Shown: piece after piece, positions 1,309 through 42,100 of the stretch
How positions within the stretch are numbered: position 1 is the first letter of the stretch
How the letters are laid out: every line of letters begins with the position of its first letter
From: Octopus vulgaris
Lineage: Eukaryota
Length of the DNA: 64,000 nt
Reading direction: 5' to 3'
NCBI GenBank assembly: GCA_951406725.2
Contig: OX597835.1
Span: forward strand, 21,328,001 to 21,392,000
Notes under the pieces: generated by a model
Seen by the model: only the letters and a program-made list of their open reading frames with translations
Told to the model about the DNA's origin: nothing
Database searches by the model: none
Translations under genes and position numbers: made by a program

Positions 1309-3636
1309 TTATTGCTTATTTAGCTTGGGTTCGAATTTATCAATAAAATTCTTTTCTCTGATTTTCCTCTCGATTTCACTTGGGCTGTGTAATTTGTAGA
1401 ATGGAAATATTATATATATTTTCCGACCACATGTTGCTAGGTGGTTACTCAAAGGTATCTGACGGACCTCTGGGTCTCTAATCTGTTGCCGGTGTACACG
1501 TGAGCGTTCTAATAGTGCGTTTCCCGTCTGACCTACATATATTTCTTCACAATTTGGGCATTTGATGCAGTAAATTAAATTTCTGCTTTTGCAGTTCATA
1601 TTCGCGTTTGTGAATATTTTCCCGGTTTTTGTGTTTATATATTGACCGGTATGTATGAATTGGCATGTGCCACATCGGCTATCATTGCATTTAGATACCG
1701 TGAATGTTTGGTCTTTGTTGCTGAGGTCAAATTTTGCCTTTGTTAGTAATGTTTTCAAGTTTTTAGGCTGTCTTTTACTAAGCACCATAGCTCGATCCTT
1801 GATTATGTCTTTTAATTCATTACTTTGGGCAATGATTGGTAGGTTTGCTTTGGCAATGTTGAAGATATTCTGGTGACATGGGTTGTGTGTCACTATGAAT
1901 GGTATGACTTGTTCTTGTTTTCCTCTTCCTTGGGTTGTCCTAAGTTGTTGTATAGGTATTTTTATAGCCCGCTGTATGCCATTTTCTATAAGTAGAGATG
2001 GGTATTTTTGTTTGAGCAAAAATTCTCTTAGTTCTATTAGGCGTTTGTTCCTGATATTTGCATCTTCTACAATAGTACAAATTCTTCTGGCTAGGCAGTA
2101 TGGGATGTTACGTTTTGTATGTGGTGGATGGCACGACTTAAAATTTAGGTATTGATGTGTGTCTGTGTGTTTATAGTATATATCTGTGGTGATGGTGGTG
2201 TCTTTTTTAATTACCATTATATCCAGGAATGGTAATTTGGTACTACTCATCTCCTTTGTAAATTTGAGAGATGGGTGTAGGTTGTTCAGGAGGATATTGA
2301 ACTCTTCCAGAGTATTTAGAGATTCTGTCCAGATTATGAAACAGTCGTCTAGGTATCTCTTCCATGCCTTTTCAATATACTTTCTAAATCCAGTGCCATA
2401 GTTTACCTCCACCTCTTGGTAGAGTTGTTCTTCTAAGTATCCCATTACAGAGTTGGCGTAAACGGGAGCAAACCTCGTTCCCATCGCCGTGCCTCTAATT
2501 TGGATGTAATTCTTTCCATTGAAGAAGAATGTGTTATTTTCTAGAATAAGTTTGACTGTGTCTAATATAAATGGCACTGTGAATCTGCTGGGAATCACTT
2601 CTCTATGTTTTTCTAACCAGTATTTAATCGCCTTTATTCCTAAATCGTGTGGAATATTGGTGTAGAGGCTTACCACATCAAAACTTAGTAAAACTGAATT
2701 TGTTTCTGTTGTTTTGGGAAGATGGGACAGGAAGTCGATGTCATCCCTGATGAAACTTGGTATGTAAGTACATAGTGGTTTCAAAACAATGTCAATAAAA
2801 TTGCTTAGACGGTGTGTAGGGCATGCTGGACCAGCTATAATAGGTCTAAGTTTTAGGTCTTTTGGATGTAATAATTTTATGTACTCACTTTCTTGTTCTT
2901 TTACTGCCTGTTGAATGTTTTTTGATTTGTGTATTTTTGGTAAGCCGTAGAAGTTGCTGGGTTTTGGTTCAAAATTGGTGATGTAGTCTTTTTCATTATC
3001 CGTAAGTGAGTTGTGGTGTGTTGAAATCAGGTTGTTGATCTTTTTCATGATGTGGTGGTCTATATTTGCGGGTATTTCACAATAGAAGGTTGTATCCTTC
3101 AGTTGGTCTTCAACCAAATCCTTATAGTATTCGGTATCCATAATAACAATTGCACCACCTTTATCTGCTTGTTTAATTATTATTGTTTGATCGTTTTGTA
3201 TACGTTTACATGCAGACATCTCTGATTTGCTAATGTTTGGCCTAACATTGGTATTGCGTCTAAGGGGAAATTTAGACAGGATATCAATGTATTGGTCAAG
3301 GTAGTTATTTCTTCCTTTTGGTGGGGTGAAATTTGATTTATTCCTTACTAGGGATTCATCAATCTCATTACTTTTGTTAGCGAAGAATTCTACAAGTCGT
3401 AATTTTCGACAGAATTTTTGGATATCCTCCTTTAATTCTTGGTGGTTGGCTGTTGGTGTAGGTGTGAATTTCAGTCCTTTTGACAGAAGTTGGATTTCAT
3501 CATTGTCAAGATCTCTTTTTGATAAATTAATTATTTTAGGATCTATACGTTCAGTTGTTTGGGGTATGTTTCCTCTTGGATTTTTTCTTTCTCCGGTGTT
3601 TGTTGTCCTGACGTAAAAAAATGGATTTTTTTCTGG
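1309..3636 (-). CDS. Penelope-type reverse transcriptase + C-terminal GIY-YIG endonuclease (frame open from 3636; first ATG at 3219)
   Basis: Motifs [71 protein letters not shown], Cys linker [29 protein letters not shown]; hand translation of 3636-3220 shows no stop. Confidence 0.95.
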
Positions 3637-15133: not shown

Positions 15134-15673
15134 TTGTTTGATTGATTGATCTAAGATAATTTAAACATAAACGGCGTTAATTTTGAGACGAATATTAATA
15201 CGGAGGATGTTCCCTGCACGGTTGCATCAGGTTTCGTCTCTTTTTCTTACATAAACATACATACATAAATTCATAAACACCAGATTATAAATGCGAAATT
15301 CTACCAATGATAATTGGTTCCCCTGAGTAAATTCCAGTTTTCAGAAAAAGAAATCAGTTGAAACTCATCTTACAATTACATCCTGTAAGAGGGACAATAA
15401 AAATATGGAAGAATTTTCTTAATTTCAATATGTGAATTTGTTCCAGCTGTCTACTTTCCATCGATGACACTTTGTATCTTTGTTAGAAATCAACCCTTTC
15501 CTCATGGGAACATTTGAATTAAATGAAAACAGAATATAGATATTACAGAGATGTACTTGCATAGCGAGTGACTTGATCTGAGATCGTGTGCTGGAACGAA
15601 AACAATTGCAGCGTAATTGCAACAATTAAGAATAACATGAAAACCGTTCGATTCACTTCAACATTTAATTTAA

Positions 15674-15724
15674 TTTGTCAAAATATTTTCGTCGCTTTGA
15701 GACCGCGACTTGTTCACTGACAAA
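15674..15724 (-). ncRNA. Minimal hammerhead ribozyme with swapped G3:C8 core pair
   Basis: Minus strand TTTGTCA-GTGAACA-AGTCGCGGTCTCAAAGCGAC-GAAA-ATAT-TT-TGACAAA; 7-bp stem I, 5-bp stem II, palindromic ATAT loop. Confidence 0.75.
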
Positions 15725-16810
15725 ACTTCGTTCTGAATATAGATAGATAAAGCTGTAGACATATACTAATATATAAATACATACCGAGTTCAAATTCCGC
15801 CGAGGTCGACTTTGCCTTTCATCCTCTCGCGGTCGATAAATTAAGTACCAGATACGCACTGGGGTCGATATAATCGGCTTAATCCCTTTGTCTGTCCTTG
15901 TTTGTCCCCTCTGTGTTTAGCCCCTTGTGGGTAGTAAAGAAATAAATATATAAATACATACGCGCGTGCATTTTGTATATATGTTCCGTTTGCAAAATTC
16001 CTTTAGAAGGCTGTGGTAATCTAAGGAGTACTTCTAAAGTGCCGTGCAATAAAGTCGAACCCAAAACGACTTAGTAGAAAAAGGATCGTGCTGACCACAC
16101 ATAATAACGCGTTTCTTTACAAGAAATCGATTTCCGGCAAATTTTTAGAATGTTCTACATGAACAGATAATTCAACCTGATTCTCCAAATTGGTTTCGAT
16201 TCCTGGCAGAAATAAATCACTTTCACTATCGGTGCCAATGCCTCGAGGAATCTTAATCTAAGAGATTATACAAGAAATCCTTAAAGTCAATATCAAGATC
16301 CTAAATATCTTCTCGGGGAAAAATATCGTGACTTATTTCCGTAAACCTATATTCTTCTTCCAACAAGACTTTTGCCTCCGGACAGATAAAGATAATGAGA
16401 GATCGAACCTCCAAATGCCAGTAAGAATCAATTTATTAACTCTCTGACGAATTAAATGTCGGTTATTACAATTGCGAGAAGATAAAACGGCAGGAAACAG
16501 AAGAGTGGGGGGGAGATTTCTTTATATTTTGTATTAATGGATACCATTTAAGATACTGCATGAAACTAAATTTGGGGGTTTTTATTCAGTATAAAGCATT
16601 TTTAACTAACTGTCTCTCTCTCTCCATCTCTCTCTCTCACTGTTCCTCTCTCTTTATCTATCTATCTATCTATCCATCTATCTATTTATCTATAATTTTT
16701 CTATTTCTGTCTCTCTGTCTATCTCTCTCTTACTTTCTCTTTCTCTCTATATATACACACACAGACACACAGTGAAACACACACACACAAACACACACAA
16801 ACACACACAA

Positions 16811-23112: not shown

Positions 23113-24055
23113 TACTGGCTGGCTACGCTGCATTGAAAAGGGGCAATACCCCGAAACGCGTCTGTAGCTGCCGGTCAAGTAGTGTGGAGCGACTGACCTC
23201 CCTTGTTCGAAGGTTATATGGATACAGTTTGTGTATCAAATAGCTAACTTAAGGCGATGGCCTCATGGAGCTAATAAGCGGACAGCTTTTTTCTTATTTT
23301 TATAAGAATGCCATATTAGTATGGCGATAACTATTATTTTCCGGGAACGCTGCCGCTGTTCTCTTTTAGAGACATTAGTTATTTTAATATTTCTATTATT
23401 GAAAACAAGTGGATGTATTCCACCGAAACTAGGTAAATAAAACCATCGAACAGAGATTGACGGAAGCGACACCTACTGGCTGGCTACGCTGCATTGAAAT
23501 AGGGGCATATACCCCGAAACGCGTCTGTAGTTGCCGGTCAAGTAGTGTGGAGCGACTGACCTCCCTTGTTCGAAGGTTATATGGATACAGTTTGTGTATC
23601 AAATAGCTAACTTAAGGCGATGGCCTCATGGAGCTAATAAGCGGACAGCTTTTTTGTCTTATTTTATAAGAATGCCATATTAGTATGGCGATAACTATTA
23701 TTTTCCGGGAACGCTGCCGCTGTTCTCTTTTAGAGAGACTTAGTTATTTTAATATTTCTATTATTGAAAACAAGTGGATGTATTCCACCGAAACTAGGTA
23801 AATAAAACCATCGAACAGAGATTGACGGAAGCGACACCTACTGGCTGGCTACGCTGCATTGAAAAGGGGCAATACCCCGAAACGCGTCTGTAGTTGCCGG
23901 TCAAGTAGTGTGGAGCGACTGACCTCCCTTGTTCGAAGGTTATATGGATACAGTTTGTGTATCAAATAGCTAACTTAAGGCGATGGCCTCATGGAGCTAA
24001 TAAGCGGACAGCTTTTTTTTATTTTTATAAGAATGCCATATTAGTATGGCATAAC

Positions 24056-24060
<5 letters not shown>
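23113..24060 (+). mobile_element. Retrozyme-like tandem array, ~2.6 units of 361-365 bp, each with a variant hammerhead
   Basis: Units start at 23113, 23474 and 23839; each has CTGCA-TTGAAA(T)A-GGGG...CCCC-GAAA-CGCG-TC-TGTAG; ends in (TA)n. Confidence 0.8.
23128..23167 (+). ncRNA. Minimal type I hammerhead with U3:A8 core (copies near 23489-23530 and 23854-23893)
   Basis: CTGCA-TTGAAAA-GGGG-CAATA-CCCC-GAAA-CGCG-TC-TGTAG; stem I extends (GGCTGGC/GCCGGTC) across an internal bulge. Confidence 0.78.
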
Positions 24061-24125
<65 letters not shown>

Positions 24126-39108: not shown

Positions 39109-42100
39109 TATTTATATGTCCTTTTGTTTTTTTAAGTGACTTAAGATGTCTTTATATGAACAGAGATGACTCATAGCTCTGTCTGGACCATGAGTAATTG
39201 AAAACAAAACAAAAACGTGACCACTTATAAATACACTTATAAAATGTACAATTATCTACATAGTTAAGTTCTATTAGCAGAAGAAGTATGAAACTATTTA
39301 TATGTCCTTTTGTTTTTTTAAGTGACTTAAGATGTCTTTATATGAACAGAGATGACTCCTAGCTCTGTCTGGACCATGAGTAATTGAAAACAAAAATAAA
39401 ACCTGACCACTTATAAATACACTTATAAAAAGTATAATTATCTACATAGTAGATATGAACAGAGATGACTCCTAGCTCTGTCTGGACCATGAGTAATTGA
39501 AAACAAAAAAAACAAAAGAAAAAAACCTGACCGCTTATAAATACACTTATAAAAAGTACAATTATCTACATAGTAGATATGAACAGAGATGACTCCTAGC
39601 TCTGTCTGGACCATGAGTAATTGAAAAAAAAAGAAAAACCTGACCACTTATAAATACACTTATAAAAAGTACAATTATCTACTTAGTAGATATGAACAGA
39701 GATGACTCCTAGCTCTGTCTGGACCATGAGTAATTGAAAACAAAAATAAAACCTGACCACTTATAAATACACTTATAAAAAGTATAATTATCTACATAGT
39801 AGATATGAACAGAGATGACTCCTAGCTCTATCTGGACCATGAGTAATTGAAAACAAAAATAAAACCTGACCACTTATAAATACACTTATAAAAAGTATAA
39901 TTATCTACATAGTAGATATGAACAGAGATGACTCCTAGCTCTGTCTGGACCATGAGTAATTGAAAACAAAAAAAAAAACCTGACCGCTTATAAATACACT
40001 TATAAAAAGTACAATTATCTACATAGTAGATATGAACAGAGATGACTCCTAGCTCTGTCTGGACCATGAGTAATTGAAAAAAAAAAAAACCTGACCGCTT
40101 ATAAATACACTTATAAAAAGTACAATTATCTACATAGTAGATATGAACAGAGATGACTCCTAGCTCTGTCTGGACCATGAGTAATTGAAAAAAAAAAAAA
40201 AACCTGACCGCTTATAAATACACTTATAAAAAGTACAATTATCTACTTAGTAGATATGAACAGAGATGACTCCTAGCTCTGTCTGGACCATGAGTAATTG
40301 AAAACAAAAATAAAACCTGACCACTTATAAATACACTTATAAAAAGTATAATTATCTACATAGTAGATATGAACAGAGATGACTCCTAGCTCTATCTGGA
40401 CCATGAGTAATTGAAAACAAAAGAAAAAACCTGACCGCTTATAAATACACTTATAAAAAGTACAATTATCTACATAGTAGATATGAACAGAGATGACTCC
40501 TAGCTCTGTCTGGACCATGAGTAATTGAAAACAAAAAAAAACCTGACCGCTTATAAATACACTTATAAAAAGTACAATTATCTACTTAGTAGATATGAAC
40601 AGAGATGACTCCTAGCTCTGTCTGGACCATGAGTAATTGAAAACAAAAATAAAACCTGACCACTTATAAATACACTTATAAAAAGTACAATTATCTACTT
40701 AGTAGATATGAACAGAGATGACTCCTAGCTCTGTCTGGACCATGAGTAATTGAAAAAAAAAAAAACCTGACCGCTTATAAATACACTTATAAAAAGTACA
40801 ATTATCTACATAGTAGATATGAACAGAGATGACTCCTAGCTCTGTCTGGACCATGAGTAATTGAAAAAAAAAAAAACCTGACCGCTTATAAATACACTTA
40901 TAAAAAGTACAATTATCTACATAGTAGATATGAACAGAGATGACTCCTAGCTCTGTCTGGACCATGAGTAATTGAAAACAAAAAAAACCTGACCACTTAT
41001 AAATACACTTATAAAAAGTACAATTATCTACATAGTAGATATGAACAGAGATGACTCCTAGCTCTGTCTGGACCATGAGTAATTGAAAAAAAAAAAAACC
41101 TGACCACTTATAAATACACTTATAAAAAGTACAATTATCTACATAGTAGATATGAACAGAGATGACTCCTAGCTCTGTCTGGACCATGAGTAATTGAAAA
41201 CAAAAATAAAACCTGACCACTTATAAATACACTTATAAAAAGTACAATTATCTACATAGTAGATGTGAACAGAGATGACTCCTAGCTCTGTCTGGACCAT
41301 GAGTAATTGAAAACAAAAATAAAACCTGACCACTTATAAATACACTTATAAAAAGTACAATTATCTACATAGTAGATATGAACAGAGATGACTCCTAGCT
41401 CTGTCTGGACCATGAGTAATTGAAAACAAAAATAAAACCTGACCACTTATAAATACACTTATAAAAAGTACAATTATCTACATAGTAGATATGAACAGAG
41501 ATGACTCCTAGCTCTGTCTGGACCATGAGTAATTGAAAACAAAAATAAAACCTGACCACTTATAAATACACTTATAAAAAGTACAATTATCTACATAGTA
41601 GATATGAACAGAGATGACTCCTAGCTCTGTCTGGACCATGAGTAATTGAAAACAAAAATAAAACCTGACCACTTATAAATACACTTATAAAAAGTACAAT
41701 TATCTACATAGTAGATATGAACAGAGATGACTCCTAGCTCTGTCTGGACCATGAGTAATTGAAAACAAAAATAAAACCTGACCACTTATAAATACACTTA
41801 TAAAAAGTACAATTATCTACATAGTAGATGTGAACAGAGATGACTCCTAGCTCTGTCTGGACCATGAGTAATTGAAAACAAAAATAATACCTGACCACTT
41901 ATAAATACACTTATAAAAAGTACAATTATCTACATAGTTAAGTTCTATTAGCAGAAGAAGTATGAAACTACAACCTACTACTAATTTATACTTACAACCA
42001 CTTGATTTTTACGCTAGATGTTTTAGCTAAGAAGCATTTAGGCACAAATAAATACACTTATAAATACACTTATAAAAAGTACAATTATCTACATAGTTAA

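What the first reader, a model, noticed from the sequence alone, without database searches (positions are those of the whole stretch)
15674..15724. Natural G3:C8 swapped minimal hammerhead
Seen: perfect 7-bp stem I, 5-bp stem II and palindromic ATAT loop around the core GUGAACA. This reciprocal swap of the C3:G8 pair preserves pairing. A double compensatory change argues for selection on ribozyme function rather than decay (inference). It lies in an unclassified ~200-bp segment (15545-15735).
Basis: partly seen in the sequence, partly recalled or inferred. Interest (0 to 1): 0.72.

Follow-up and report, generated by a model that had tools for sequence, protein, structure and literature searches.

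The report
Swapped-core hammerhead in Penelope-like retrotransposon
This is one of thousands of leftover ends of a jumping gene that carry a hammerhead-shaped RNA whose two paired core letters are swapped (G-C instead of the usual C-G) and have stayed so through old and young generations of the element, so it is likely a real but slow self-cutting RNA, though cutting is untested.

Summary
Confirmed, on the minus strand: a minimal type I hammerhead (7-bp stem I, 5-bp stem II, extra base after A9, 6-nt palindrome AAUAUU, U17) with G3:C8 instead of C3:G8. The 'unclassified' segment is a 192-bp stub, with an 11-bp target duplication, of the terminal repeat of a Penelope-like retrotransposon (RT plus C-terminal GIY-YIG). 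Of 7,200 exact core matches in the genome, 6,583 are G3:C8 and none is C3:G8. The swap is derived: the sister family and five related elements from metagenome contigs keep C3:G8. An ancient generation already had G3:C8; since then N7, loop II and the palindrome changed, but the pair did not. That supports selection on source elements, not on this partnerless copy. Against strong activity: 234 copies have unpaired G3:G8 (about ten times the neutral rate), and 1 of 97 unbiased copy ends starts at the predicted cut, while 72 keep the whole core. The engineered swap is known to be partly active, and natural U3:A8 is known; nine literature searches found no natural G3:C8, but key papers were unavailable. 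The scan already noted this family elsewhere in this genome, and G3:C8 in other genomes and phages. New variant of a known kind.

The parts
15543..15734 (-). 192-bp stub of the pseudo-LTR (leader, hammerhead, ORF start region, tail) of a Penelope-like retrotransposon
   Evidence: 88-90% identity to the other 39 best full-length matches of 40 candidates scored out of 3,020; the same sequence lies 3' of RT-GIY-YIG ORFs and 5' of the ORF in a tandem junction, L173
15674..15724 (-). minimal type I hammerhead motif with G3:C8 core; predicted cut between 15681 and 15680
   Evidence: cut site inferred from hammerhead numbering
15711..15717 (-). core strand G3 U4 G5 A6 A7 C8 A9 (G3 at 15717, C8 at 15712)
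   Evidence: sequence
15691..15710 (-). extra unpaired base (15710) and stem II (15709-15705 with 15695-15691, G10.1-C11.1) with 9-nt loop II
   Evidence: fold; loop II differs between subfamilies while the stem is kept
15682..15687 (-). 6-nt palindrome A15.1 to U16.1, predicted to form helix III only in a dimer
   Evidence: sequence; the ancient generation appears to have had a 4-nt palindrome here (read by eye)
15615..15640 (-). copy-specific deletion/rearrangement that removes the ORF start codon found in other copies
   Evidence: alignment; ORF start read from L173
15543..15603 (-). about 60-bp 'tail' between the two preferred 3' ends of copies (likely the two reverse-transcription start sites)
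   Evidence: arms end near position 145-150 or 206 of the repeat; 48 short and 49 long of 97
15532..15542 (.). 11-bp target-site duplication, copy 1
15735..15745 (.). 11-bp target-site duplication, copy 2

Best explanation
The motif is the minimal hammerhead in the terminal repeat of a Penelope-like retrotransposon, with its core pair swapped to G3:C8, and it is likely a slow self-cutting RNA that would work only as a dimer, probably with help from the element's protein. Shown: anatomy, parent element, copy numbers, and that the swap is derived and old. Inferred: the 3:8 pair, the stems and the palindrome were kept by selection on source elements; two repeats (two RNAs, or the two ends of one tandem transcript) pair through the palindrome so that the core of one cuts after U17 of the other; cutting is slow enough that most RNAs stay whole and are copied from two internal start sites back to a 5' end about 23 bases before G3, giving the thousands of 150- and 206-base stubs, of which this window holds one dead copy.
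For: Parent ORF with RT and C-terminal GIY-YIG directly upstream and, in tandem, downstream; PLE insertion signature of head-to-head arms with a tail and AT-rich targets. G3:C8 in 6,583 of 7,200 exact core matches, C3:G8 in 0. Tree: the family nests (100/100) among C3:G8 elements; the sister family in this genome and all 5 credible hammerheads found in 32 metagenome loci have C3:G8. An ancient generation (copies 53% alike) has G3:C8 in 17 of 23 and 51 of 72 matches and never G8, with a different N7, stem II length and loop II, and apparently a shorter palindrome. If two core positions changed at random, the chance that they are 3 and 8 and complementary is about 0.4-0.6%. The hammerhead lies outside the ORF, so coding constraint does not explain it. 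Extra base after A9, palindromic helix III, U17, dimer action and low rates are typical of PLE hammerheads (PMC4209133). C3G/G8C partly restores cleavage in a lizard PLE hammerhead, which needs the PLE protein (PMC11167929).
Against: No cleavage data. Only 1 of 97 unbiased copy ends lies at the predicted cut (2 within 55-63) and 72 keep the whole core (8 of the 97 are passengers of one other element). G3:G8 copies number 234 against about 20 expected from the mirror transversion, on many haplotypes and with independent flanks, so a paired core is not needed to be copied. The young, intact sister family has C at position 9 in all 51 motif matches (some loci overlap), hinting at relaxed catalysis in this clade. 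The modelled active dimer (-26.2 kcal/mol) is less stable than two monomers (-28.6). Hammerhead mutants did not reduce insertion in vitro in PMC11167929.
Confidence: 0.68

Rival explanations
1. The fold is kept as a structural element (RNA dimerisation through the palindrome, protein binding, 5' leader) and no longer cuts in any useful way; the 3:8 pair survives as part of the fold.
For: Copies come from uncut RNA; G3:G8 copies spread; the sister family lost A9; the two arms of one insertion often differ, G8 in one arm only in 11 of 14 insertions and arms from two subfamilies in L306, L315, L326 (counted by hand), which fits two templates held together.
Against: The 3:8 pair forms mainly in the catalytic conformation (established knowledge, recalled), and U4, G5, A6, A9, G12, A13, A14 and A15.1-U16.1 are all canonical in old and young generations; a dimer signal would need only the palindrome. 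Discordant arms can also come from mixed tandem arrays such as L176 and L178.
Confidence: 0.24
2. A dead hammerhead took two chance changes in one source element, which then amplified; the pairing is a coincidence.
For: Thousands of copies descend from few sources, so the count is not independent evidence; within the young family core positions vary about as much as N7 (157 changed at N7, 199 at 3, 164 plus 234 at 8), as expected for neutral copies.
Against: Chance of a complementary 3/8 double change about 0.5%; G3:C8 persists from the ancient to the young generation while N7, stem II length, loop II and the palindrome changed without loss of structure.
Confidence: 0.06
3. The motif is a chance match in repeat-rich DNA and not a hammerhead descendant.
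For: Rfam does not report it.
Against: 0 hits in 100 shuffles; related elements carry canonical hammerheads of the same layout 3' of their ORFs.
Confidence: 0.02

Closest known systems
Minimal type I hammerheads of metazoan Penelope-like elements (Cervera and de la Pena 2014, PMC4209133; read: main text parts 1-2 of 4, supplementary file 2 parts 1-2 of 3; file 1 not searchable)
   Same: In the pLTR; type I; unpaired base between 9 and 10.1; G10.1-C11.1; short palindromic helix III; U17 common; mostly solitary truncated copies; natural covariation at 3:8 (U3-A8) reported.
   Different: G3:C8. None of the representative hammerheads listed in their Fig. S3 starts the core with G; their consensus for the extra base is H, here G in most copies; no octopus row.
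PAc hammerhead of the green anole Poseidon element (Frangione et al. 2024, PMC11167929; read: passages and section 3 part 1 of 2)
   Same: PLE hammerhead at the pLTR-ORF junction; two internal RT start sites giving the tail; engineered C3G/G8C partly active; uncut RNA is the main template.
   Different: There the swap is a laboratory mutant and the start codon lies in stem II; here the swap is natural and the ORF starts about 55 bases after the motif; this element has the CxxC-type linker before the endonuclease.
Natural hammerhead core variants (Perreault et al. 2011, PMC3088659; read: passages and section 8)
   Same: Compensatory change at the 3:8 pair seen in nature (U3:A8).
   Different: G3:C8 is not named in the text I read; figures not seen.
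EN+ PLEs with C-terminal GIY-YIG and Zn-finger-like linker, Neptune/Nematis type (Craig et al. 2021, PMC8557442; read: passages)
   Same: RT then linker CX2-5CxxC then GIY-YIG; pLTRs, inverted 5'-truncated partner, tail, (TA)n targets.
   Different: Tail about 60 bp rather than 30-40; Neptune versus Nematis not resolved here for lack of named references.

Membership tests
Hammerhead ribozyme | Core U4 G5 A6, A9, G12 A13 A14, A15.1-U16.1, H17 | tested here: met
   N17 = U, allowed by the NUH rule (PMC8495972)
Hammerhead ribozyme | C3 and G8 identities (CUGANGA) | tested here: not met
   G3 and C8 here and in 6,583 of 7,200 core matches
Hammerhead ribozyme | Watson-Crick pair between positions 3 and 8 | tested here: met
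   G3:C8 is complementary; C3:G8 and U3:A8 in other families of this genome
Hammerhead ribozyme | Helices I, II and III around the core | tested here: met
   I 7 bp, II 5 bp; III only as a 6-bp palindrome in a dimer
Hammerhead ribozyme | Site-specific self-cleavage after N17 | not testable with these tools
   Indirect genomic test negative: 1 of 97 copy ends at the site
Hammerhead ribozyme | Match to an Rfam hammerhead model | tested here: not met
   no hammerhead family at E<=10
PLE minimal hammerhead | Located in the pLTR of a PLE | tested here: met
   3' of the ORF in L089, L140, L141, L144, L148-L150 and 5' of it in L173
PLE minimal hammerhead | Extra base between 9 and 10.1, G10.1-C11.1, palindromic 15.2-16.2/loop 3 | tested here: met
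   features as listed in PMC4209133
PLE minimal hammerhead | Cleaves as a dimer | not testable with these tools
   dimer can be drawn; energy -26.2 versus -28.6 kcal/mol for two monomers
EN+ Penelope-like element | Single ORF with RT (YVDD) and C-terminal GIY-YIG | tested here: met
   read from translations (motif names recalled); 275 homologues at E<=0.001; Pfam gave no family for P0003
EN+ Penelope-like element | pLTRs from tandem arrangement, inverted truncated partner, tail | tested here: met
Neptune or Nematis clade | Zn-finger-like linker between RT and EN; placement among named references | tested here: inconclusive
   linker present; no named reference in the tree
Non-LTR retrozyme | Tandem 150-400-bp units without ORF | tested here: not met
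   this copy is solitary; short tandem arrays occur in only a few loci (L063, L176, L178)

The most novel reading that the evidence does not exclude
A natural, high-copy G3:C8 hammerhead acts as a deliberately weak ribozyme at the very 5' end of the transcript, and its palindrome pairs two RNAs, as a retroviral dimer signal does, so that one insertion is copied from two different templates; dead G3:G8 copies spread because an active partner or no cut at all suffices. The arms of head-to-head insertions would then be a genomic record of RNA dimers.
Probability: 0.2. Interest if true: 0.72.

Novelty: new variant of a known kind. Interest (0 to 1): 0.42.

Why it matters
Position 8 supplies the 2'-OH general acid of the hammerhead and G8C alone lowers the rate about 100,000-fold (PMC8495972), so a natural family that fixed C8 with G3 is evolutionary confirmation of the 3:8 pair and shows that CUGANGA searches miss whole families (about 6,600 copies here). 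One genome holds C3:G8, U3:A8, G3:C8, G3:G8 and C9 cores in related elements, a ready natural series for the open question of what PLE hammerheads are for. The gain is modest because the engineered swap is already known to work partly and U3:A8 is known in nature.

Tried and rejected
Rfam at E<=10: only microsatellite and snoRNA noise. Pfam on the 839-aa ORF: nothing. G3:G8 as a surviving intermediate of the swap: rejected, because the ancient generation has no G8 in 23 and 72 matches; G8 arms are not clearly older (4.0% versus 2.8% divergence, 32 and 19 arms, p 0.27). A compensated A3:U8 lineage: 7 of 20 double changes against about 2 expected, too few, and age spread inflates doubles. Coding constraint: rejected, frames across the motif have stops. 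The 2.2-kb element shared by L031, L032, L038, L041, L044 is a carrier (Helentron-like ends, label recalled), not the parent. The sequence before the repeat looks like a branch point and 3' splice site, but no splice joint was seen in four contig sets guessed to be RNA and no common first exon precedes the copies; a transcription start with a cap-derived G is the alternative: G precedes the junction in 28 of 43 non-templated cases in the pooled, biased set but only 9 of 22 in the unbiased set, p 0.07, several explained by the inverted arm: unresolved. No RNA holder listed on record; raw-read run X21 laid nothing. A search for unrelated G3:C8 families with an ACGT palindrome gave 13 matches against 24 in the control; the looser search (469 against 127) returned mostly this family, its old generation and chance hits in a SINE-like repeat (first 100 seen). 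The first cross-family DNA alignment used wrong coordinates for the sister and the second misaligned stems; neither was used for pair counts. No structure prediction or complex job was run. Papers that may already report G3:C8 were not held: Lunse et al. 2017, Przybilski and Hammann 2007, Martick and Scott 2006, and two reviews looked up by recalled ids.

Full report
Observation. Read on the minus strand, 15724-15674 folds into a 7-bp stem I and a 5-bp stem II (z -2.49, 4 of 200 shuffles as stable). The core reads G3 U4 G5 A6 A7 C8 A9, then one extra base, G10.1-C11.1, G12 A13 A14, a perfect six-base palindrome from A15.1 to U16.1, and U17. A descriptor that allows any base at 3 and 8 found three motifs in the window and none in 100 dinucleotide shuffles. 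Rfam does not see it.

What the segment is. The stretch 15543-15734 is flanked by an 11-bp direct duplication and belongs to a dispersed repeat with 3,020 candidate places, 40 scored, in a 2.8-Gb genome. [quoted passage not shown] L148 is nearly full length and L173 shows the tandem junction, with the hammerhead followed about 55 bases later by the start of the long frame. The best of 275 protein homologues (57%) is named Octopus vulgaris by its source, and a 105-residue part of it is 98-100% identical at the 150 places scored in this genome, so the host is very likely an octopus (inference). Copies sit head to head, one arm ending near base 145-150 and the other near 206 of the repeat (48 short and 49 long of 97). 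This is the inverted-partner and tail signature of PLEs (PMC8557442 passages), traced to two internal RT start sites in PMC11167929. The window copy has a single arm, a rearrangement over the start codon and no second core in the window (1 exact match, 6 three-mismatch matches at chance level).

Is the swap real and fixed? Exact 19-base counts: G3:C8 6,583; G3:G8 234; 3 changed alone 199; 8 to A or U 164; both changed 20, of which 0 are C3:G8 and 7 are A3:U8; N7 changed 157. Thus 6,583 of 7,200 matches with A7 are G3:C8. In the unbiased sample 65 of 72 arms covering both positions are G3:C8. A second subfamily, 86% identical in the ORF, has another loop II but the same core. Contigs of three other coded organism labels show no variant at 3 or 8 above 3% among the rows listed; they are too close to add much.

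Is it derived, and how old? The young sister family in this genome has intact 1,311-residue frames in tandem and a C3:G8 core, though with C at position 9. Of 32 related loci from metagenome contigs, 5 gave a credible hammerhead 3' of the ORF, all C3:G8, with the same extra G and palindromic loop and U17 in three; many contigs end too early, and one weak match inside an ORF (L256) was set aside. In a tree of 15 RT rows the G3:C8 family is sister to the C3:G8 family (100/100) inside a clade with two C3:G8 outgroups (100/100; midpoint root, 17 short or weak metagenome loci left out of the 32 plus those without added information). A relaxed search then found an ancient generation of the same repeat, copies 53% alike and 56% like the young family: G3:C8 in 17 of 23 and 51 of 72 (counted by hand, a few young copies included), never G8. 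It has C7, a 6-bp stem II, another loop and, read by eye, a four-base palindrome where the young family has six. Free positions changed, an insertion kept the palindrome, and the swapped pair stayed. With a chance of about 0.5% for a complementary 3/8 double change, selection on source elements is the best reading. Copy number itself is no evidence of selection, since copies decay neutrally.

Evidence against strong cutting. For 97 arms picked by a motif downstream of the cut, 72 start upstream of G3, 40 at the first two bases of the repeat, and 1 at the predicted cut (8 arms are passengers of one carrier element). The usual template was therefore uncut, as in vitro for PAc; long copies could also derive from cut and religated circles, which I could not test. 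G3:G8 is about ten times the rate of the mirror transversion, occurs on many loop II haplotypes and has independent flanks. In 11 of 14 insertions where both arms cover position 8 and one has G, only one arm has it; three insertions join arms of two subfamilies, in both polarities (counted by hand). This fits two templates per insertion, either two RNAs or a mixed tandem transcript (mixed arrays exist: L176, L178).

Mechanism. Shown: anatomy, location, parent, counts, ancestry. Inferred: helix III can form only between two palindromes, so the core of one repeat would cut the partner after U17; PLE minimal hammerheads are slow even as dimers (PMC4209133) and the G3:C8 swap gives only partial activity, so this ribozyme is likely slow and helped by the element's protein. 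A cut in the 5' repeat would remove about 60 bases of leader from the ORF message; cuts in both repeats would release a unit-length RNA. The rival, a non-cutting dimer or protein-binding fold, remains open at about one in four.

Comparison and novelty. Every PLE minimal-hammerhead feature I could test is met except the C3 and G8 identities; cleavage could not be tested, so I file it as a variant that works like, and descends from, that family. Natural U3:A8 is in print (PMC3088659 section 8; PMC4209133); engineered G3:C8 is in print (PMC11167929; PMC8495972 passage; PMC3884650 passages). Nine searches and the alignment in the supplement of PMC4209133 showed no natural G3:C8; passages of PMC7229834, PMC10085705 and PMC6765202 and part 1 of 5 of bioRxiv 10.64898/2026.07.22.740005 added none. 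Lunse et al. 2017 with its large collection, its supplements, figures in all papers and bioRxiv supplements were not seen, so the claim of novelty is provisional. Earlier notes of this scan describe the same family on other pieces of this genome and G3:C8 in other genomes and phages; they are not independent support, but two gave me leads that I tested (copy ends at the cut; older generations).

Verdict. A real, old, derived G3:C8 variant of the PLE minimal hammerhead; this particular copy is a dead stub. New variant of a known kind, interest 0.42.

Noticed in passing
window 23113-24061 (+): 363-bp tandem repeat, 2.6 units, each with a type I hammerhead with U3:A8 core and ACGCGU palindrome (retrozyme-like); the middle unit has two extra bases; a relative lies in L086/L087.
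   Followed up: partly
L263-L266, L201-L230 (sister PLE family): Young family with intact 1,311-residue ORFs in 4.6-kb tandems whose hammerhead has C instead of A at position 9 in all 51 motif matches and an imperfect palindrome.
   Followed up: partly
G000:C16: 49 of the 81 copies that extend upstream of the repeat start lie on one contig, many with G3:G8 and a shared loop II variant but different flanks: a local burst.
   Followed up: partly
L031, L032, L038, L041, L044 and 8 arms: A 2.2-kb element with Helentron-like ends (label recalled) carries a head-to-head pair of this repeat as passenger and has spread it.
   Followed up: partly
L306, L315, L326, L142: The two arms of one insertion come from different subfamilies, in both polarities.
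   Followed up: partly
L089 8790-8812, L144 6903-6926: Branch-point-like and acceptor-like sequence just before the repeat start; most copies begin there, often after an untemplated G (splice site or capped start, unresolved).
   Followed up: partly
L173 about 1324-1335 and 1625-1640: The first bases of the repeat are complementary over about 9 bases to a stretch early in the ORF, a possible long-range helix (seen by eye).
   Followed up: no
window 1312-3636 (-): 775-residue open frame that looks like another Penelope-like ORF (resemblance recalled).
   Followed up: no
window 39340-41938: 113-bp satellite, 23 copies, 96% matches.
   Followed up: no
window about 15780-15940: SINE-like repeat common in this genome right beside the insertion (resemblance recalled).
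   Followed up: no
L018, L049, L095, L100: Two other minimal hammerhead families with canonical C3:G8 and ACGU palindrome.
   Followed up: no
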